From Mobula hypostoma (Eukaryota): a stretch of DNA of 64,000 bases. A program made the translations under genes and the position numbers. This document shows positions 1 to 64,000 of the stretch, piece after piece (the first letter of the stretch is position 1; each line of letters opens with the position of its first letter). The DNA lies in NCBI RefSeq assembly GCF_963921235.1, contig NC_086097.1, positions 132,186,001 to 132,250,000 of the forward strand, written 5' to 3'. The notes beneath the pieces are model-generated. The model was not told the origin of the DNA, did not search any database, and saw nothing but the letters and a program-made list of their open reading frames with translations.

Positions 1-1210
1 GTTTGTTGCGGCCTTGCATGTTAACATTAAGCACATTTAAGTGCTGTGTTATATCCGCCAGAAATGCAAGATCATGAGGCCAGTCTGTATCAACCAGCTC
101 TGCCACTGGCTTCCCTTTCTCGTTCATGAATAGTCCGATTTCCGCATGTAATTGAAAAAAAAACGTTTGAGCACAACCCCTCTGCTCAACCAGCGGACTT
201 CAGTGTGATAGGGTAGGCCGTGTTCAATATTACTTTCAGAAAAAAGGGTGTCAAATTGCCGATGGTTGAGTCCCTTGGTTCTAATAAAGTTAACCGTTTT
301 GATTACTACATCCATGACATTGTTCATTGTCAGGCTCCTGCTACATAGCGCCTCTTGGTGTATAATACAATGAAAATTCCAGAATTCCTGCTCTGGATTC
401 CCTTGTCTGAACTTTCTCTCTGAGTTTCGCAACAACACCTGCCTTTTCCCCGACCATGGACGGTGCGCCATCTGTTGCCACGCTGACAGCGTGACTCCAG
501 TCAACCCCCAGTCTGTCCAAGGCCTCGATGAGGCTGGAGAAAACGTCGTTCGCTGTGGTGGTGTTTGTCATGGGCACCATCTCCACAAACTCCTCGGTGA
601 CGGTCAAAGATGCATCAACGCCATGAATAAATATTCCCAAATGAGCTACATCAGTCATGTCGGTGCTCTCATCAATTGCAATAGAGAAGGCATTAAATGA
701 CTTTTCCTTGTCTTTTAGTTGACTGTTCAAATCTCCTGCAAGATCCCCGATTCTCTCTGCCGCAGTATTTCTTGACAAGCTGATATTACCAAAAGCCTGT
801 CTCTTCTCAGGGCACACCAGCTCAGCCACCATCAGCATGCATGCTTTGATGAATTCCCCCTCTGAGTATGGCTTCGACGCAGCAGCTATTTTGTTGGCAA
901 TAGTATAGCTGGCCTTGACAGCTCCATCATGAGTCTCTCGACTTTTGGTGAAAACTGATGGCTGTTTTTTCAGAGCTGCTTCAAGCTCGTTTACCTTTTG
1001 CGTTCTGAATCGTCCTGCATACTTGTCATATTTTTCTCTGTGTGACATCTCATAGTGTTGTTTGATATTGTACTCTTTTGCCACAGCCACATGTTGCGAG
1101 CATATCAGACATACAGGTTTGCCGTTGACCTCACAGAAGAGAAAACGATCTTTCCAATTATCGTTGAATATCCGACCTTTGATGTCAACTTTTCTATTCG
1201 TGGAAAACAT
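1..1210 (-). pseudogene. Frameshifted hAT transposase
   Basis: ORF 341..1228 (ATG at 1210): BED-type finger CLIC...HYEMSH, catalytic motifs AIDESTD and ATDGAPSM; frameshift near 405 into ORF 124..504 with HCIIHQEALC (CxxH) and EVRWLSRG; second frameshift in the A-run near 155-163, then ...[13 protein letters not shown] to the window edge. Confidence 0.9.
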
Positions 1211-1531
1211 TTTGAACCACAGCAGCAAACAGACTCAGCCTTGCTACAGGTGTTACTTACCTGAGTACTCTGTGTGTTTATACTGTGTCTGATGACGTAA
1301 GTGGGGCCCTAGTGGTCTTCAGTGCGGGGTGGTAGGTGCTTATGCACAGCGGGTGGTGAACTGCACCCTATTGTTTTCTAAGTACACACAACAAGCTGCC
1401 GGCACAGCAGGCAGCACACACAGCAGAGGGAGGGAGAGAGTGCAGCTGCCGTACAGATACATAATAAATGGTCGTGAATATACTTTTTTTTTCCCAAATC
1501 ATCCGCGCGGGCCAATAGTTTGACACCCCTG
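1..1531 (-). mobile_element. hAT DNA transposon (SPIN/Buster/Charlie-like, GTF2IRD2-like transposase), 5' part; continues beyond window start
   Basis: Terminal sequence CAGGGGTGTCAAAC on the minus strand beginning at 1531; flanking 8-mer GTTTAAAG (1532-1539) has the central TA typical of this group's target sites; transposase motifs downstream. Confidence 0.9.
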
Positions 1532-2716: not shown

Positions 2717-4069
2717 CGCGCAGATTGCCATGGGAACTGGGTACGTTTGAAGAGAACAAAGGCTTTACATGAAAGACAGAAGGATAAGAGAAAGATTCCA
2801 AAGACTCTAGAGATGGGACTTGGCAGTAAGTGAGAGACCAAAATTGATGTAGTTTGGGGTTGGGACCTCATTAAAATGTGACTGAAGAGCTTTAATGGAG
2901 GGACAATTGGCACTGCCCGTGTGCCAACATTCTGCCAGGATTAGGATGTTGATTGATGATAGGTCCATGGACCTTGTCTGCAAAGGAGGAGATATCCTGT
3001 AGTGCAATAAACTGGCTGCTTCTGATCCATCAGTGGGCCCTGGAAAAAATGTGAAGAAAATGAAAAAGGAACAAATTGCGTTTCTGTATCGAAGATGATT
3101 TAACATTAACAAAAAAATGTCAGTATTCCCATTTATGATGCAGGGAATGTGGCAGCCAATATGCACTGGAAGATCCCAGATTATCTGCTTTTGTGTTGTT
3201 TGTAGAGGGAATAGCTGTTGGTCAGGATTCTCACTGCTCTTCCTCGAAATAGTTCTGTGGGACTTCTTACGCCTCTCTTGTATCATATTGTCTTGGGGAA
3301 CTGAACTGATAATGAACGTAGTGAGTGAATAGTTCATCAGGTAAAGACTGCAGCTTGGGCCATGGTGGGAGCAATGATCAAGTACTGTAAGGGAGAGTGC
3401 TGCTCGAAGATAAACGTGCACCAGAAATAAGAATTGGTGAGAGAGAGAGTGCTTATACTAGTTGAAGAATATGTGAGGTCTCAGTTTATGGCCAGCATTC
3501 AAATTGTGCAATTGCTGGAAAAAAATTGTCTGAACAGAACATAGAACGTAGAACACCAAACATAGAACATCGAAGCTAGAATAGTACAGTACAGGAACAA
3601 TCTTACAGCCCATGGTCCTGTGCCAAACTAGTAACTAAATGACTAATTAAACCAGTCCCTTCTCCCTACACAATGTCCATATTTCTTCATTCTCTGCACA
3701 TTCAAGACATATTGAAGAAAGTCCATAATGAAGATAACTATTTTCAAAGTTTGTTTATTGAAGGAGGACATTAGTAACAAGGGAGCACTTGCTTCATATT
3801 GTTTGGCTATCTAGCTTATTTCAGAAAACTCTTGTGAGTTTGGAGTCACGTATCTTTATAGGTCCAGTCCGTCTGGTCCAGTCCTGTGGGACACAGAGTG
3901 GCAACCAAGTCCTATGTAGGGTCTGCACACTCTGTCAGAGATGGGTGATGATCACCAACAGATTGCTTGGACTGTTGTAGGCACCTTCTGTGGATTACAG
4001 CTCTAAATCTTCCCCAGTTGGAGAAATGCTTGGCCAACAGTGTTTCATTTCTTGGGTAGTTCAAGCACA

Positions 4070-4549
4070 TTTGGTGCAGATAGAAGGTTCTGTGGTCGTG
4101 ACAGAAAATCCAGGGTGGTTTGTTGCCTCCCAGGTGCCAGGGTCAAGGATGTCTCTGATCGATTGCATGACATTCTGAAGTGGAAGGGTGACCAGCCAGA
4201 TGTTGTGGTGCACATCGGTACCAACGACATAGCAAGGAAGAGTGAGGAGGTCCTGGACAGTGAGTATAGAGAGCTTGGTAAGAAGTTGAAAAGCAGGACC
4301 TCAAGAGTGGTAATCTCAGGATTGCTACCTGTGCTAGGTGCCAGTGAGGGTAGGAATAGGATGCTCTGGAGGAGGAACAAGTGGCTGAGGAACTGGTGTA
4401 GGGGGCAGGGTTTCAGATTTCAGGATCATTGGAACCTCTTCTGGGGCAGGTGGGACCTGTACAAGAGAGACGGGTTACACTTGAACCACAAGGGGACCAA
4501 TATCCTTTCAGGGAGGTTTGTTAGTGCTGTTGGGGAGGCTTTAAACTAG
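4070..4549 (+). pseudogene. CR1 ORF1 C-terminal SGNH esterase domain (block I GDS lost by truncation)
   Basis: CLPGA (block II), VVVHIGTND (block III), RDGLHL (DxxH, block V). Confidence 0.85.
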
Positions 4550-4590
4550 ACTTCCAGGGGGATGGGAACCAGAGTGTCAGAGCTGACAGT

Positions 4591-7476
4591 GTGGCTGGGG
4601 TGAAAATAAATGATATTGAAAGTTTAAGCAAATCCGCTGATAGAAAGGTTGTGAGTGGTGGTAAAAATCATCTGAGGTGTATATATTTCAATGCTAGGAG
4701 TATTGCGGGGAAGGCAGATGAATTGAGGGCGTGGATTGACACGTGGAATTATGATGTTATAGCAATTAGTGAAACTTGCCCACAGGAGGGGCAGGACTGG
4801 CAGCTTAATATTCCAGGGTTCCGATGTTTCAGATGTGATCGAGGCAGAGGAATGAAAGGTGGGGGAGTAGCATTGCTTGTTAGGGAAAATATTACAGCAG
4901 TGCTCAGGCAGGACAGATTAGAGGGCTTGTCTACTAAGTCCTTATGGGTGGAGCTGAGAAACAGGAAAGGTATGGCCACATTAGTGGGATTATATTACAG
5001 ACCACCCAATAGTCAATGAGACTTGGAAGAGCAAATCTGCAGAGAGATAGCAGGCAACTGCAGGAAACATAAAGTTGTGGTGGTAGGGGATTTTAATTTT
5101 CCATACATTGATTGGGACTCCCATACTGTTAGGGGTCTAGATGGTTTAGAGTTTGTAAAATGTGTTCAGGAAAGTTTTCTAAATCAATATATAGAGGGAC
5201 CAACTAGAGGGGATGCAATATTGAATCTCCTGTTAGGAAATGAATTAGGGCAAGTAACAGAAGTCTGTGTAGGGGAGCACTTTGGTTCCAGTGATCATAA
5301 CACCATTAGTTTCAATTTGATCATGGACAAGGATAGATCTGGTCCTAGGGTTGAGGTTCTGAACTGGAAGAAGGCCAAATTTGAAGAAATGAGAAAGGAT
5401 CTAAAAAGCGTGGATTGGGACAGGTTGTTCTCTGGCAAAGAAGTGATTGGTAGGTGGGAAGCCTTCAAAGGAGAAATTTTGAGAGTGCAGAGTTTGTATG
5501 TTCCTGTCAGGATTAAAGGCAAATTGAATAGGAATAAGGAACCTTGGTTCTCAAGGGATATTGCAACTCTGATAAAGAAGAAGAGGGAGTTGTATGAAAT
5601 GTATAGGAAACAGGGGGTAAATCAGGTGTTTGAGGAGTATAAGAAGTGCAAGAAATACTTAAGAAAGAAATCAGGAGGGCAAAAAGAAGACATGAGGTTG
5701 CCTTGGCAGTCAAAGTGAAGGATAATCCAAAGAGCTTTTACAAGTATATTAAGAGCAAAAGGATTGTAAGGGATAAAATTGGTCCTCTTGAAGATCAGAG
5801 TGGTCGGCTTTGTGCGGAACCAAAGGAAATGAGGGAGATCTGAAATAGGTTTTTTGCATCTGTATTTACTAAGGAAGCTGGCATGAAATCTATGGAATTG
5901 ACGGAATCAAGTAATGAGACCATGGAAACTGTACAGATTGAAAAGGAGGAGGTGCTTGCTGTCTTGAGGAAAATTAAAGTGGATAAATCCCCAGGACCTG
6001 ACAGAGTGTTCCCTCGGACCTTGAAGGAGACTAGTGTTGAAATTGCGGGGGCCCTGGCAGAAGTATTTAAAATGTCGCTGTCTACGGGTGAAGTGCCGGA
6101 GGATTGGAGAGTGGCTCATGTTGTTCCGTTGTTTAAAAAAGGATCGAAAAGTAATCCGGGAAATTATAGGCCGGTGAGTTTAACGTCAGTAGTAGGTAAG
6201 TTATTGGAGGGAGTACTGAGAGACAGAATCTACAAGCATTTGGATAGACAGGGGCTTATTAGGAAGAGTCAACATGGCTTTGTGCGTGGTAGGTCATGTT
6301 TGATCAATCTGCTGGAGTTTTTCGAGGAGGTTACCAGGAAAGTGGATGAAGGGAAGGCAGTGGATATTGTCTACATAGACTTCAGTAAGGCCTTTGACAA
6401 GGTCCCGCATGGGAGGTTAGTTAGGAAAATTCAGTTGCTAGGTATACATGGAGAGGTGGTAAATTGGATTAGACATTGGCTCGACGGAAGAAGCCAAAGA
6501 GTGGTAGTAGAGAATTGCTTCTCCGAGTGGAGGCCTGTGACTAGTGGTGTGCCACAGGGATCAGTGCTGGGTCCATTGTTATTTGTCATCTATATCAATG
6601 ATCTGGATGATAATGTGGTAAATTGGATCAGCAAGTTTGCTGATGATACAAAGATTGGAGGTGTAGTAGACAGTGAGGAAGGTTTTCAGAGCCTGCAGAG
6701 GGACTTGGACCAGCTGGAAAAATGGGCTGAAAAATGGCAGATGGAGTTTAATACTGACAAGTGTGAGGTATTGCACGTTGGAAGGACAGACCAACGTAGA
6801 ACATACAGGGTTAATGGTAAGGCACTGAGGAGTGCAGTGGAACAGAGGGATCTGGGAATACAGATACAAAATTCCCTAAAAGTGGCGTCACAGGTAGATA
6901 GGGTCGTAAAGAGAGCTTTTGGTACATTGGCCTTTATTAATCAAAGTATTGAGTGTAAGAGCTGGAATGTTATGATGAGGTTGTATAAGGCATTGATGAG
7001 GCCGAATCTGGAGTATTGTGTTCAGTTTTGGTCACCAAATTACAAGAAGGATATAAATAAGGTTGAAAGAGTGCAGAGAAGGTTTACAAGGATGTTGCCA
7101 GGACTTGAGAAACAGTTACAGAGAAAGGTTGAATAGGTTAGGACTTTATTCCCTGGAGCGTAGAAGAATGAGGGGAGATTTGATAGAGGTATATAAAATT
7201 ATGATGGATATTGATAGAATGAATGCAAGCAGGCTTTTTCCACTGAGGCAAGGGGAGAAAAAAACCAGAGGACATGGGTTAAGGGTGAGGGGGGAAAAGT
7301 TTAAAGGGAACATTAGGGGGGGCTTCTTCACACAGAGAGTGGTGGGAGTATGGAATGAGCTGCCAAACGAGGTGGTAAATGCGGGTTCTTTTTTAACATT
7401 TAAGAATAAATTGGACAGATACATGGATGGGAGGTGTATGGAGGGATATGGTCCGTGTGCAGGTCAGTGGGACTAG
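4591..7476 (+). pseudogene. CR1 ORF2 (AP endonuclease-reverse transcriptase), disrupted
   Basis: YFNARS, ISET, GGGVAL, YYRPP, VGDFN, SDHN (APE); KSPGPD, NYRPVSLTS, DFSKAFD, GVPQGSVLGP, FADD (RT). In-frame stops at 5017-5019 and 5841-5843; frameshifts near 5650 and 7112. Confidence 0.95.
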
Positions 7477-8617
7477 GCAGAAAATGGTTCGGCACAGCCA
7501 AGAAGGGCCAAAAGACCTGTTTCTGTGCTGTAGTTTCTATGGTTCTATGGTTCTATTTCAGTATTTACTTATGATGAGTCAGACAGAGCATATTTGGCCT
7601 ATTAGATCCAAGCTGGCTTCTACCAGTCCAACCTCATCAGTACTCTTCTCCCTGGTCCAGCTCTCACACACTCACCAGCTACCCATCCACTCTTTTGTCA
7701 CTTATCTCTTCGGAGAGTAAATTATAGTAGCTACTTAACCTTGGGATGTGGGAGAAAACTGGAATACCTGGACAAAATCCACCTGATCATAGGGAAACTA
7801 TGAAGATTTCACAAGGACATCACCAGAGGTCAGGATTGAACTTGAGCTGTTGGAACTGTGAGCAGGATGCAATTTTTTTTTTTCAAAAGAGCTCTGAAAA
7901 CATCATTGAAGAAAGCTTTTGCCATGATGGAGCTTGAAGGTGAATCCTATTTTGGGAGTCTGGAGTCAGACGGTTAGACATTTTAGCCCAACTATCAGAG
8001 GTGATTGACTGTGATCAGAGTTTCATTGCTGGAAATTTTGACCTGGGAGAGGAAAATGATATTGGTTTGTTTATCTTCTATTTGGAGCAAGTACTGGTGG
8101 CTTTGTCACATAATATAGACCAATATTGGCAGAATTTTTTCTTTTAAAGGAGTAACATAAACTATGTTTGTTCTACATTACAGTATTATTATGATCACCA
8201 TTACGGATTTAATAATGGAATTTGATGTCATTAGCTTCCCTTGTGGAATTAAATGAATACTTCCAAATCAACAATTGTTTTCCCTGAATTATGAGTCTAG
8301 TAACATAACCCAAACATGACCTATCACTGTGATGCAGTGTGCTTGTAATAAGACTGCCTCTAATACTCTTGAGTTAAGTAACATACAGGGTGTGGAGAGG
8401 AATGCACAGGAGCTCGAGAAGGTGTGTCTGATTTACTTGAAGTTCTAATGAATATGTCCACATGTTCACAATAACACACAACCACATGGGATCAAGAAAC
8501 ATACTTTGCTGAAAGTGGCAACACAGGTACACATGGTGGTGATAAAGGTGTTTCGCCTGCTTGCCTTCATTGGTCAGGACACTGAGTACAGTATTTGAGG
8601 CATTATATCACAGCTTT

Positions 8618-9181
8618 TGGGGTGTCTGGGGTGTCAGGGAGGGGTAGCACCTCTGGTGGGGGAACATGTCACGTCCTTTTTAGGGCGGTTAGTCCACCTT
8701 TGGTCCCCACCTGGCACTCAGCTCTCACCTGTGGCTCCCTGTAGCTGTTTGCATATGACAGCGGCCACACCCCGAGCAACGGCTTCGACAAGCCGGCTAA
8801 ACCAGGTGAGGGTAGCCGACGGGTCTCAAACCCTTGGTGTGATAGGGAGTTGTCTATCCCAGCATGTGAAGCCAGACTCTGGCGGATTGAGCGGACGAGA
8901 CCAATGGAAGGTCCAATGGTCAACAAGGCAGTCTCTGCAAGTGTCGTGGAACATGTAGAGCAGGACAAGACACAGAAGACATCCTGGTCATCCACTGCGC
9001 CTAGTCCCATCTCCAGCCATCTAGACTCTGTCTTGCCACTGGATCCAGACGGGAATTGGGAAGAGAGAGTGAGGCTGACACTGCGCAACTCTCCCTCACT
9101 TAAATCCAAATCACGTGCTAGTCTCGACACCATCATAATGGTTTCGAGGTCCTCACTGACCTCAACGATGGACAAACAACC
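8618..9181 (+). mobile_element. Non-autonomous non-LTR retroelement, 564 bp, with a ribozyme-like 5' end
   Basis: Perfect 13-bp TSD ATATCACAGCTTT at 8605-8617 and 9182-9194; CpG-rich relative to flanks; no recognisable protein; related to 54431-54867. Confidence 0.85.
8619..8812 (+). ncRNA. Candidate HDV-like self-cleaving ribozyme
   Basis: P1 GGGGTGT (8619-25 or 8628-34)/ACACCCC (8767-73); P2 CTCACCTG (8724-31)/CAGGTGAG (8803-10); P3 GGC (8733-35)/GCC (8764-66); L3 starts TCCCTG; GAGCAA (8774-79) versus HDV GGGCAA; P4 CGGCTT/AAGCCG; J4/2 GCTAA with putative catalytic C8797. Confidence 0.75.
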
Positions 9182-10369
9182 ATATCACAGCTTTAAAATT
9201 TGCTGCTGAGGTCACACCTGGAGCATTGTGCACAATTCTGGTCATCCAGCTATAGAAAGTATATCATTACACTGAAAAGTATGCACAAATGCCTCTACTT
9301 CCTTAAGAGTGTGTGAAGATTCGGCATGACATCCAAAACCTTGACAAACTTCTATAGATGGGGTGAGTATATTGAGTTTTTCATACAGAGAATGGTGAGT
9401 ATGTGGAACGAGCTGCCAGAAGAAGTGGTAGAACTCAGTACAATTAAAACATTTTAAAGACATTTGGACAGGTAAATGTATAGGAAGGGCTGACAGGGGA
9501 TATGGGCAACATGCAGACAAATGGGACTGGCTTAGGTAGGCAATTTGGTCACATTGGATGAGTTGGTTTAAAGGGCCTGTTTCCATGATACATTACTTGT
9601 TGAATCCATGTTAGTGGAGGGCAGTCATACTGTAGTTAAAGATTGACCATGTTTTATTGAACGGTGATACAAGTGTGACGGGTGGAATGGCACACCTCTA
9701 GTTCTGTTTCAAACATTTTGTTGTGAAGCATTCTTAATGGGATGTTGGATGTGTGGAATGCACTGCCAGCAACAGTGATAGAGACGAATACAGTAGGGTC
9801 TTTTAAGAGAATCTTAGGTAGGTACATGAAGCTTAGGAAAATAGAGGGCTATGCGGTAGGCAGATTCTAGAGTAGATTACATGGTCAGCACAGGATTGTG
9901 GGCTGGAGGGCTTGTAATGTGCTGTAGATTTCAATGTTCTATGTTGACCTTATTTACATATATTGCACTACCTGGGCCAAGGAATCAAGATTTGGAACTT
10001 GGGTCTCTATCACGAGAGCAATCAAACCCTGTGAGAAAGATTAGGTTCCTCCAGAGCCTTTGTAGAGGGTTCTGAAGTGAGTAGAATTTGTAGCTTAGTC
10101 TCTCATTCAAACCAACCTTCCCTCCATTGATTCCAACTACCCTTCTTGCTGCTTGGAGAAAGCAGCTGACATCATCAGGACCCCTCCTATTCCACTCATT
10201 CTCTCTTCATTCCTTTCCTGCCAGGCAGAAGATACAAAAGCTTGGGAGTATTTGCTACCAAACTCGAGAATGGTTTCTAATCCACTATTAGCAGACTCTC
10301 AAAGGGCACTGCCATATGGTAAAAGTTGAACTCTTGATCTCCCAATCTACCTCATCAATGTCCAGCATC

Positions 10370-62979: not shown

Positions 62980-64000
62980 TTCTACAAAGTCAAACCTAAC
63001 ATCATGAATAGCTATGATGCTTCACTCCCAGATGAGCACAATACCTTCTACACATGCTTTAAAAGGGTGAGCGTAACTACAGCTGTGCAAATCTCTGCAG
63101 CATCTGATGACCCTGTGATTTCTGTCTCAGAGGCCGACATCTTTCAAGAAGGTGAACCCTCGCAAGGCATTAGGCCCTGTTGGGGCTCTGAAAACCTGTG
63201 CCAACCAACTGGTGGGAGTGTTCAAAGACATCTTCAATCTCTTACTGTTGCAGTCGGAGGCTCCCAACTGCTTCAAAAGGGTGACAATCATACCAATGCC
63301 CAAGAAGAGCAGCGTGTGCTGTCTCAGTGATAATCACCTAGCGGCACTCACATCTACTGTGATGAAGTGCTTTGAGAAGTTAGTCATGGATAGAATCAAC
63401 TCCTGCCTAAGCAAGGATGTGGGCCCACTGCAATTTGCCTATCACAACAATAGGTCTACAGTGGATGCAATCTCACTAGCTCTCCACCCAGCCTTGGATC
63501 ACCTGAACAATAGCAATACTTATGCCAAGCTGCAGTTTTTTGACTACTGCTCAGCGTTCAACGCAATCATACAATCAGTTCTAATCAACAAGCTCCAAAA
63601 CTTGGACCTCTGTACATCCCTCTGCAATGGAAGTAACATGTCCTCTTCACTGACAATCAACGCTGGTGCACCTCAAGGATGTGTGCTTAACCTACTGCTC
63701 TATTCTCTCTACACCCACAACTGTGTAGCTAGGCACAGCTCAAAACTATCTATAAATTTGCCAGTGATATAACTATTCTTGGCAGAATTTCACATGGTGA
63801 TGAAGTGGCATACAGGGGTGAGATTGATCAGCTGGCTGAGTGCTGTTTCAGCAATGGCCTTGCATAAAGTGTCAGTAAGACCAAGCAATTGATTGTGGAC
63901 TTCAGGAAGGGTAAGTTGAAGGAGCACACCAGGTCTCATCGAGGGATCGGAAGTGGAAAGGGTGAGCAGTTTCAAGATCCTGGCTGTCAACATCTCTGAG
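62980..64000 (+). mobile_element. Rex1/Babar LINE reverse transcriptase pseudogene, runs off window
   Basis: LKTCANQLVGVFKDIFN, ALTSTVMKCFEKLV, PLQFAY, RSTVDAI, DYCSAFN, GAPQGCVL with deletions and frameshifts. Confidence 0.9.

What the first reader, a model, noticed from the sequence alone, without database searches (positions are those of the whole stretch)
8618..8812. HDV-like self-cleaving ribozyme forming the exact 5' end of a small non-coding retroelement
Seen: immediately after the left TSD the element starts with GGGGTGT, and all HDV double-pseudoknot segments follow in the correct order: P2 CTCACCTG/CAGGTGAG, P3 GGC/GCC, P1 3' strand ACACCCC directly after P3, GAGCAA, P4 CGGCTT-CGAC-AAGCCG, then G-C-T-A-A. 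Mapping to genomic HDV numbering gives T8736=U20, C8737/C8738=C21/C22, G8741=G25, C8797=catalytic C75, A8799/A8800=A77/A78; one P1.1 pair is lost (A8775). Known: HDV-like ribozymes process the 5' ends of R2, RTE and L1Tc/Ingi retrotransposons, and the CPEB3 ribozyme works with a one-pair P1.1. Inference: this is a promoter-less, ribozyme-headed non-autonomous retroposon family that excises itself from host read-through transcripts; I do not know of a description in cartilaginous fish.
Basis: partly seen in the sequence, partly recalled or inferred. Interest (0 to 1): 0.88.

Follow-up and report, generated by a model that had tools for sequence, protein, structure and literature searches.

The report
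HDV-like ribozyme heading a fish retroposon
A 564-base non-coding jumping element, present in thousands of copies in this fish genome, most likely begins with a self-cutting RNA of the hepatitis-delta type that sets its own front end, a known trick of such elements but here in an unusual structural form.

Summary
Every stated segment is at the stated coordinates. A 13-bp target-site duplication flanks a 564-bp element (8618-9181).

The element belongs to a young family (A) with at least 1,675 copies carrying an intact core 22-mer. An older sister family (B) has a decayed copy in this window at 54430-54869.

Evidence for a real HDV-like ribozyme:
- My HDV descriptor hits only this site in the window and none of 400 shuffles.
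- The family majority restores the "lost" P1.1 pair (G at 8775).
- Copy 5' ends cluster at the first G of GGGGTGT: 18 of 30 at the first heptamer, 5 of 30 at the second.
- P1, P2, P3, P1.1 and the catalytic C are unchanged between A and B, while other positions differ.
- One compensatory pair in P4 and three in a closed J1/2 domain show selection on RNA structure.
- The only Rfam hit, far below threshold, is an HDV ribozyme family.

Evidence against:
- A 19-nt hairpin sits inside L3.
- The cleavage-site pair is G-C, not G·U.
- The pseudoknot helices show no covariation.
- No Rfam match reaches threshold.
- Cleavage is untested.

Verdict: probable ribozyme-headed non-autonomous retroposon, confidence about 0.7. 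It is a new variant of a known kind.

The parts
8605..8617 (+). left target-site duplication ATATCACAGCTTT
   Evidence: identical 13-mer at 9182-9194
8618..9181 (+). 564-bp non-coding retroposon copy (family A), ending in ...GGACAAACAACC
   Evidence: 40 of 40 scored genome matches are 94-100% identical and about full length; other copies carry their own TSDs and (ACA)n or (AACC)n tails
8619..8625 (+). P1 5' strand (first GGGGTGT); predicted main cleavage site is 5' of G8619
   Evidence: 18 of 30 copies chosen by their 3' end start here
8628..8638 (+). second GGGGTGT: alternative P1 5' strand (cleavage 5' of G8628) and, in the MFE fold, the 5' strand (8629-8638) of the helix that closes the J1/2 domain
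   Evidence: folds; 5 of 30 copies start at this G
8626..8723 (+). J1/2 peripheral domain, closed by helix 8629-8638 / 8710-8719
   Evidence: three family-level compensatory pairs between families A and B
8724..8731 (+). P2 5' strand CTCACCTG
   Evidence: 96.4% of cells paired
8733..8735 (+). P3 5' strand GGC
   Evidence: 96.1% paired
8736..8763 (+). L3: T8736 (U20), C8737/C8738 (P1.1 strand), G8741 (G25), then the inserted hairpin GCTGT 8744-8748 / ACAGC 8758-8762
   Evidence: hairpin 95.6% paired and identical in the majority of A and B
8764..8766 (+). P3 3' strand GCC
8767..8773 (+). P1 3' strand ACACCCC
8774..8779 (+). P1.1 3' strand plus J1/4: GAGCAA in this copy, GGGCAA in the family; A8775 is a private mutation
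   Evidence: G in 28 of 30 rows; G in nearly all depth of 4 runs
8780..8795 (+). P4 hairpin CGGCTT-CGAC-AAGCCG
   Evidence: second pair is G-C in all 30 A rows and C-G in 16 B rows
8796..8802 (+). J4/2 GCTAAAC with the predicted catalytic C8797
   Evidence: unchanged between A and B; aligned to GCUAA of RF02682
8803..8810 (+). P2 3' strand CAGGTGAG
8811..9181 (+). non-coding body and 3' end of the element
   Evidence: A/B divergence rises from 21% to 50% toward the 3' end, with no 3-base periodicity; no credible Pfam domain
9182..9194 (+). right target-site duplication
54430..54869 (+). decayed copy of the older sister family B, with its own GGGGTAT...ATACCCC and the same L3 hairpin

Best explanation
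Window 8618-9181 is a dead copy of a roughly 564-bp non-coding, non-autonomous non-LTR retroposon. Its first 192 nt (8619-8810) encode an HDV-like double-pseudoknot self-cleaving ribozyme. Inferred mechanism: the element is transcribed, by read-through or from a promoter not yet found. P1 (GGGGUGU with ACACCCC), P1.1 (CC with GG), P2, P3 and P4 then form. A large J1/2 domain, closed by a helix made from the second GGGGUGU, holds P1 and P2 together. The C equivalent to C8797 acts as general acid, and the RNA is cut 5' of the first G of P1. That gives the retrotransposition template a defined 5' end. A minority of molecules use the second heptamer as P1 and are cut 9 nt downstream. A LINE enzyme, not identified, then copies the RNA by target-primed reverse transcription, leaving TSDs and a short-repeat tail. 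Shown here: motif, position, family structure, conservation, and compensatory changes in P4 and in J1/2. Inferred: catalysis, which G is used, and the source of transcription. The window's own copy has lost one P1.1 pair (A8775) and is probably a poorer ribozyme than its family.
For: (1) All helices and joining strands lie in canonical order and adjacency. The descriptor gives 1 site in the window and 0 full sites in 400 shuffles. It passes in strict form (GG for P1.1) in 17 of 29 and 11 of 22 family A copies. (2) The family majority reads ACACCCC-GGGCAA and L3 UCCCCG. (3) Of 30 copies chosen only by their 3' 100 nt, 18 start at the first heptamer, 5 at the second, and 7 are truncated elsewhere. 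In family B, by my reading of the alignment, about 21 of 28 independent copies also carry both heptamers. (4) Between A and B there are 28 fixed differences in 204 aligned columns. None falls in the 40 columns of P1, P2, P3 and P1.1, nor at U20, G25 or the catalytic C. L3 positions 23-24 and J1/4 positions 40-42 do differ. (5) Compensatory changes: P4 pair G-C (30 A rows) versus C-G (16 B rows); J1/2 domain pairs G-C/A-U, A-U/G-C and C-G/U-A. (6) The folds of A and B both close J1/2 with the second heptamer. [quoted passage not shown] (7) The 5' 195 nt is the most conserved part of the element: 15% A/B difference against 21%, 34% and 50% further 3'. (8) On a majority-type copy the only Rfam match at E up to 10 is RF02682, an HDV ribozyme, aligned over P1'-J1/4-P4-J4/2. 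(9) A sublineage with a G.G mismatch at P1 pair 3 gives 8 exact matches, against 1,675 for the intact form. (10) Precedent: R2, R4, Dong, Baggins and L1Tc are cut at or near their 5' ends, and J1/2 loops reach 498 nt (PMC3774820, sections read). The non-autonomous NARTc cleaves in vitro (PMC3185411, passages read).
Against: No Rfam family reaches its gathering score. Nothing matches at E up to 10 on the window copy. The RF02682 hit scores 13.2 bits against a cut-off of 44, E = 3.8. L3 is 28 nt with a 19-nt hairpin; I know of no natural HDV-like ribozyme with such an insert (recollection; one search found none). The cleavage-site pair is G-C in both families, not the G.U wobble of HDV; the Ts seen in B are at a CpG and look like decay. 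P1, P2, P3 and P1.1 never vary between A and B, so covariation neither supports nor refutes the two pseudoknots. About 10 of 44 family A copies with a full first heptamer read GGGGTAT, an A.C mismatch at P1 pair 6. A test for GGGGTAT/ATACCCC compensation in family B was negative: 4 of 21 informative ATACCC copies carry TAT in a heptamer, against 3 of 28 ACACCC copies. Most copies carry a T before the first G that cleavage does not explain. MFE z-scores are ordinary: -0.30, -1.43 and -0.96. No autonomous partner was found. Cleavage was not tested.
Confidence: 0.7

Rival explanations
1. The HDV-like drawing is a coincidence in a G+C-rich, structured 5' region. The sharp 5' end is a transcription start set by an internal promoter. 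The conserved, compensating helices serve another purpose, such as promoter architecture, RNA stability or recognition by the partner's reverse transcriptase.
For: No Rfam match at threshold. Covariation exists only in P4 and the J1/2 domain, which are plain hairpin-type structures, and not in the pseudoknot helices. The L3 insert and the G-C cleavage-site pair are atypical. The GGGGTAT variant is common. MFE z-scores are unremarkable. My descriptor was written after seeing the site.
Against: It must treat several things as accidents: 0 of 400 shuffles; GG/CC, U20/G25 and C-N-A-A kept at the catalytic positions in both families while neighbouring positions change; two classes of 5' ends that both fall on the first G of a heptamer complementary to ACACCCC; and an HDV family as the only Rfam hit. 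No tRNA, 5S or 7SL likeness for a Pol III head.
Confidence: 0.2
2. The fold descends from a true LINE ribozyme but no longer cleaves, or cleaves too slowly to matter. It is kept for a secondary role, for example helping translation or reverse-transcriptase loading as proposed for some retrotransposon ribozymes. The 5' ends are set by other means.
For: The G-C pair at the cleavage site and the L3 insert could cripple catalysis. The A.C mismatch sublineage was successful. The P1 pair 3 mismatch sublineage still has 5' ends at the heptamers.
Against: Strict retention of the catalytic C, of U20/G25 and of both P1.1 pairs over the A/B split is hard to explain without catalysis. The P1 pair 3 mismatch lineage is very small: 8 against 1,675.
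Confidence: 0.1

Closest known systems
NARTc / L1Tc ribozyme (L1TcRz) of Trypanosoma cruzi, with RIME and SIDER relatives (PMC3185411 passages; PMC3383444 and PMC4035085 abstracts)
   Same: A non-autonomous non-LTR element whose first nucleotides are an HDV-like ribozyme that cuts at +1. It is high-copy, with no coding capacity of its own.
   Different: L1TcRz is 77 nt, has a weak P1.1 and doubles as an internal promoter (Pr77). Here the ribozyme is 192 nt, with a large J1/2 domain and an L3 hairpin. No promoter function was tested, the host is a vertebrate, and no autonomous partner sharing the 5' end was found.
R2, R4 and Dong 5' ribozymes and the R2-derived SIDE elements (PMC3774820 sections read; PMC3414825 abstract)
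   Same: An HDV-like ribozyme releases the element RNA from a co-transcript. J1/2 loops of hundreds of nt occur. P1.1, P3 and L3 are highly conserved while other parts vary. Internally deleted non-autonomous derivatives keep the ribozyme.
   Different: R2 is specific for a 28S rDNA site. This family inserts at unrelated sites with TSDs of 5-13 bp and ends in (ACA)n or (AACC)n.
drz-Agam-2 type large HDV-like ribozymes with a P1.2 peripheral domain (PMC4908430, abstract and passages read)
   Same: A helix closing the J1/2 linker next to P1 and P2 is predicted in both families, and compensatory changes support it.
   Different: Here the 5' strand of that helix repeats the P1 5' strand, so it can compete as an alternative P1. 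There is an additional hairpin in L3.
Genomic HDV ribozyme and RF02682 (HDV-F-prausnitzii)
   Same: Shared core letters: UCC..G in L3, GG(G)CAA after P1, GCUAA in J4/2 (alignment; the HDV letters themselves are recalled).
   Different: G-C instead of G.U at the cleavage site, a 28-nt L3, an 98-nt J1/2, and far below the Rfam threshold.

Membership tests
HDV-like self-cleaving ribozymes | P1, P2, P3, P1.1 and P4 in the order and adjacency of the nested double pseudoknot | tested here: met
   cells paired: P1 79.5% (first heptamer) or 93.7% (second), P2 96.4%, P3 96.1%, P1.1 89.1%, P4 87.9%, on 69 copies
HDV-like self-cleaving ribozymes | Catalytic cytosine at the start of J4/2 | tested here: met
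   C8797 in GCTAAA; unchanged in the majority of families A and B
HDV-like self-cleaving ribozymes | L3 with U20...G25 and two Cs pairing with two Gs after P1 (P1.1) | tested here: met
   Family majority UCCCCG (A) and UCCAAG (B), with GG after ACACCCC. The window copy itself keeps only one pair (A8775).
HDV-like self-cleaving ribozymes | G.U wobble as first pair of P1 (typical, not universal; recalled, and the title of the Chen 2009 reference seen in PMC13635239) | tested here: not met
   G-C in A. In B, C or a CpG-decay T.
HDV-like self-cleaving ribozymes | Short L3 of about 7-8 nt | tested here: not met
   28 nt, with a conserved 5-bp hairpin (8744-8762) inserted before the P3 3' strand
HDV-like self-cleaving ribozymes | Covariation in the helices | tested here: inconclusive
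   Compensatory pairs only in P4 (1) and in the J1/2 domain (3). P1, P2, P3 and P1.1 are invariant between A and B. The test for P1 compensation in B was negative.
HDV-like self-cleaving ribozymes | Match to a curated covariance model at its gathering score | tested here: not met
   best is RF02682 at 13.2 bits against 44
HDV-like self-cleaving ribozymes | Mg2+-dependent self-scission 5' of P1, abolished by mutating the catalytic C | not testable with these tools
   Needs an in vitro transcription assay
Ribozyme-terminated non-LTR retroposons (R2, R4, RTE, L1Tc and their non-autonomous derivatives) | Hallmarks of target-primed reverse transcription: TSDs, 5' truncations, defined 3' end with short-repeat tail | tested here: met
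Ribozyme-terminated non-LTR retroposons (R2, R4, RTE, L1Tc and their non-autonomous derivatives) | Element 5' end coincides with the ribozyme cleavage site | tested here: met
   23 of 30 copies chosen by their 3' end start at the first G of one of the two heptamers
Ribozyme-terminated non-LTR retroposons (R2, R4, RTE, L1Tc and their non-autonomous derivatives) | Autonomous LINE sharing the 3' end, or both the 5' and 3' ends | tested here: inconclusive
   Not found. The CR1-type LINE next door ends in (TTCTATGG)n and shows no similarity. Genome searches return only the family's own copies.
Pol III SINEs | tRNA-, 5S- or 7SL-derived head with A and B boxes | tested here: not met
   No Rfam match at E up to 10; no tRNA by ARAGORN
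Retrozymes (circular-RNA retroelements bounded by ribozymes) | Ribozyme copies at both ends or in tandem units | tested here: not met
   One HDV-like site per element; no other ribozyme family in the window

The most novel reading that the evidence does not exclude
This is a new structural subclass of HDV-like ribozyme. A conserved hairpin is inserted in L3 (J1.1/3). The tandem GGGGUGU works as a two-register device: the second copy either closes the J1/2 domain (P1.2, activating cleavage at the first G) or replaces the first copy as P1 (cleavage 9 nt downstream). The device is kept since before the split of two families and drives a several-thousand-copy non-autonomous retroposon in a vertebrate.
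Probability: 0.25. Interest if true: 0.65.

Novelty: new variant of a known kind. Interest (0 to 1): 0.5.

Why it matters
If it cleaves, it adds a high-copy vertebrate retroposon to the list of elements that make their own 5' ends with an HDV-like ribozyme. It would also show that the fold tolerates a hairpin inside L3 and a G-C pair at the cleavage site. The thousands of decayed copies, together with two families that have diverged, form a natural mutational data set for this fold. For genome annotation, it explains the sharp 5' boundary of an abundant repeat without invoking a Pol III head.

Tried and rejected
- **Rfam.** Nothing at gathering scores on the window. Nothing at E up to 10 on 8560-8860.
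- **A-specific core pattern with P1' excluded.** It gave 8 hits: 2 mutated family copies, and 6 copies of an unrelated repeat with no complementary P1 or P2 strands upstream. I take the latter as chance.
- **Wider pattern.** It gave 39 hits against 3 in the control. They were family copies plus scattered unrelated sequences. No further ribozyme family with a different P1 or P2 emerged.
- **Coding capacity.** A 93-aa frame on the + strand runs to the element's end, and a 188-codon open frame lies on the - strand. Neither has a credible Pfam match. A/B differences show no 3-base periodicity, and the ATG is absent from family B. I rejected both as genes.
- **Alternative P3.** I considered the hairpin GCTGT/ACAGC as P3, with a GC/GC P1.1. 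I rejected it because J1/4 of family B has no GC.
- **8-bp P1 starting at the T before the first G.** Rejected because it would break P1.1 in family B.
- **Shared flanks in 11 of 39 family B hits.** They looked at first like uncleaved longer elements. They are one single-heptamer B insertion inside another repeat that was then copied, since both flanks are shared.
- **P1 compensation in family B (ATACCC with GGGGTAT).** No enrichment.
- **Public runs.** Only assembled contigs were available, so no RNA starts, ends or strand could be read. Contig ends at the element boundary mean nothing for a repeat. The runs labelled "RNA?" are guesses.
- **Autonomous partner.** Not found.
- **Papers.** Ruminski 2011 and Webb 2009 are not held, so what I say about RTE and lamprey ribozymes is recalled or second-hand.

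Full report
**What is there.**
- GGGGTGT occurs twice, at 8619-8625 and 8628-8634.
- P2 is CTCACCTG (8724-8731) with CAGGTGAG (8803-8810).
- P3 is GGC (8733-8735) with GCC (8764-8766).
- ACACCCC (8767-8773) directly follows GCC, then comes GAGCAA.
- P4 is the hairpin CGGCTT-CGAC-AAGCCG (8780-8795), followed by GCTAA with C8797.

A 13-bp duplication, ATATCACAGCTTT, flanks a 564-bp element at 8618-9181.

**It is a large repeat family.**
A search of the window's own genome gave 4,850 first-look candidates. The 40 that were scored are all 94-100% identical and about full length. The 30 loci fetched have their own TSDs of about 5-13 bp. Their tails continue the element's end as (ACA)n or (AACC)n. 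An exact 22-mer of the core occurs 1,675 times.

I call this family A. The element has no tRNA-like head.

It has no coding constraint. Its open frames have no credible Pfam match. Differences from the sister family show no 3-base periodicity.

**More than chance.**
I wrote a descriptor of the HDV-like fold with relaxed L3 and J1/2 lengths. It finds only this site on both strands of the 64-kb window. In 400 dinucleotide-preserving shuffles it found 21 partial (core-only) sites and no full site. The descriptor was written after seeing the site, so this overstates significance. Genome-wide, some chance matches would be expected. The weight therefore rests on the independent lines below.

**The family repairs the copy.**
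In 28 of 30 aligned family A rows, position 8775 is G. The family therefore reads ACACCCC-GGGCAA, with both P1.1 pairs. In 26 of 30 rows, 8740 is C, giving L3 = UCCCCG. In contigs of four public runs from four coded organisms, G holds nearly all the depth at 8775. The strict descriptor passes in 17 of 29 and 11 of 22 family A copies.

On a majority-type copy, Rfam's permissive scan returns one match among 4,227 families. It is RF02682, an HDV ribozyme, aligned over P1'-GGCAA-P4-GCUAA. The score is only 13.2 bits against a cut-off of 44, E = 3.8. On the window copy there is no match at all.

**5' ends.**
I chose copies only by their 3' 100 nt to avoid bias. Of 30:
- 18 begin at the first heptamer.
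- 5 begin at the second heptamer.
- 7 are truncated elsewhere, at element positions 71, 188, 225, 269, 282, 286 and 293.

Several junctions place the first G directly after the TSD, for example L034, L040 and L017. So there are two discrete 5' ends. Both fall on the first G of a heptamer complementary to ACACCCC.

A T precedes the first G in most copies, and the TSD does not explain it in several. I cannot account for it. Non-templated addition by the reverse transcriptase is a guess.

**A sister family.**
BLAST of the element against the window found a 71%-identical stretch at 54503-54600. It belongs to a decayed 440-bp relative at 54430-54869. That relative's family, B, gave 2,610 and 3,526 first-look candidates in two searches, at about 75-84% identity. 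I aligned 30 A copies and 39 B copies of the 5' region.

Between the two majorities there are 28 fixed differences in 204 columns.
- None lies in the 40 columns of P1, P2, P3 and P1.1.
- None lies at U20, G25 or the catalytic C.
- L3 positions 23-24 differ (CC in A, AA in B).
- J1/4 differs (GCA in A, UAC in B).

At the background rate of about 14% per column, zero changes in 40 columns is unlikely (0.86^40 is about 0.002, my arithmetic). The 5' 195 nt is also the best-conserved part of the element: 15% difference, against 21%, 34% and 50% further 3'.

**Compensatory changes.**
The second pair of P4 is G-C in all 30 A rows. In B it is C-G in 16 rows, with the rest mostly CpG-decayed.

MFE folds of an A copy, the window copy and a B copy all show the same feature. 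The second heptamer (8629-8638) pairs with 8710-8719 and so closes the J1/2 insert into a separate domain. Within that domain, three pairs differ between the families on both sides while staying paired: G-C/A-U, A-U/G-C and C-G/U-A. Two more pairs change on one side only and stay paired through a wobble, and a third such pair is in P4. Three pairs are broken in B under A's fold.

A helix closing J1/2 is the "P1.2" peripheral domain that accelerates large HDV-like ribozymes (PMC4908430, abstract and passages read). This reading makes the first heptamer the P1 strand and the second a structural strand that can also compete as P1. That fits the 18-to-5 split of 5' ends.

**What does not fit.**
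- L3 is 28 nt because a 5-bp hairpin (8744-8762) sits before the P3 3' strand. The hairpin is conserved in both families but shows no covariation. I know of no precedent (recollection; one search found none).
- The first P1 pair is G-C, not G.U.
- P1, P2 and P3 are invariant, so the pseudoknots rest on conservation only.
- About 10 of 44 family A copies read GGGGTAT in the first heptamer, an A.C mismatch at pair 6.
- A small sublineage reads ACACGCC, a G.G mismatch at pair 3, with no compensating change. It still has 5' ends at the heptamers. It is rare, however: 8 exact matches against 1,675.
- The window's B copy pairs GGGGTAT with ATACCCC, but a wider test found no enrichment. Of 21 informative ATACCC copies, 4 carry TAT in a heptamer, against 3 of 28 ACACCC copies.
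- MFE z-scores are ordinary.

**Comparison with the known.**
HDV-like ribozymes at the 5' ends of R2, R4, Dong, Baggins and L1Tc are established, with J1/2 loops up to 498 nt (PMC3774820, sections read). Non-autonomous derivatives that keep the ribozyme are known: NARTc, which cleaves in vitro (PMC3185411, passages read), and R2 SIDEs (PMC3414825, abstract). So the kind is known.

I found no paper linking such ribozymes to sharks or rays, or to a vertebrate SINE-like family. The library lacks most subscription journals and any repeat database. Earlier notes of this scan call this genome a ray's and report RTE LINEs in it; I did not test either point.

The autonomous partner is unknown. The CR1-type LINE just upstream (4007-7552) has a different tail and no similarity.

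**Verdict.**
The best reading is a real, or recently real, HDV-like ribozyme that sets the 5' end of a non-autonomous retroposon, confidence about 0.7. The window's own copy is a slightly damaged member. The claim that the element has no promoter and rides host read-through transcripts is plausible but untested. Novelty is a new variant of a known kind, and interest is moderate.

Noticed in passing
window 4007-7552 (+): A CR1-type LINE with endonuclease (PF03372, PF14529) and reverse transcriptase (PF00078, E = 7e-36) frames. It ends in (TTCTATGG)n at about 7530-7552. It is not the partner of the ribozyme element: the tail differs and there is no similarity.
   Followed up: partly
window 8560-8617 and 9195-9300: The ribozyme element sits inside a fragment of another LINE of the same type. 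The flank across the insertion site translates to ...LRSHLEHCAQFWSSSYRK..., like LEYCVQFWSPNYKK of the LINE upstream.
   Followed up: no
family A copies, e.g. L003:1501-2064 (- strand): The whole 564 nt is free of stop codons in one minus-strand frame in many copies (188 codons). A 93-codon plus-strand frame runs from an ATG at element position 287 to the end without a stop. There is no Pfam match and no codon periodicity against family B. Probably composition, but unexplained.
   Followed up: partly
L069, L073, L074 and 11 of the 39 loci L082-L120: One single-heptamer family B copy lies nested in another repeat. Both of its flanks are shared by many loci, so the composite was copied further by some other means.
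   Followed up: partly
L003, L122, L128; L039-L041, L057: The number of GGGGTGTAT units at the 5' end varies from one to three among copies. This suggests slippage or alternative cleavage.
   Followed up: partly
5' junctions of family A copies: A T precedes the first G in most copies, and the target-site duplication does not explain it in several of them.
   Followed up: no
window 344-1234 (-): A 297-codon open frame with a Spin-doc type zinc finger (PF18658, E = 1.3e-7). It is probably part of a domesticated or decayed transposase-like gene.
   Followed up: no
window 63119-63769 (+): A further reverse-transcriptase fragment (PF00078, E = 1.7e-12).
   Followed up: no
L061-L065, L067: An unrelated repeat family matches the short core pattern TCCCCG...GCC...GGGCAA...GCTAA but lacks P1 and P2 partners. 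It is an example of a chance descriptor hit.
   Followed up: partly
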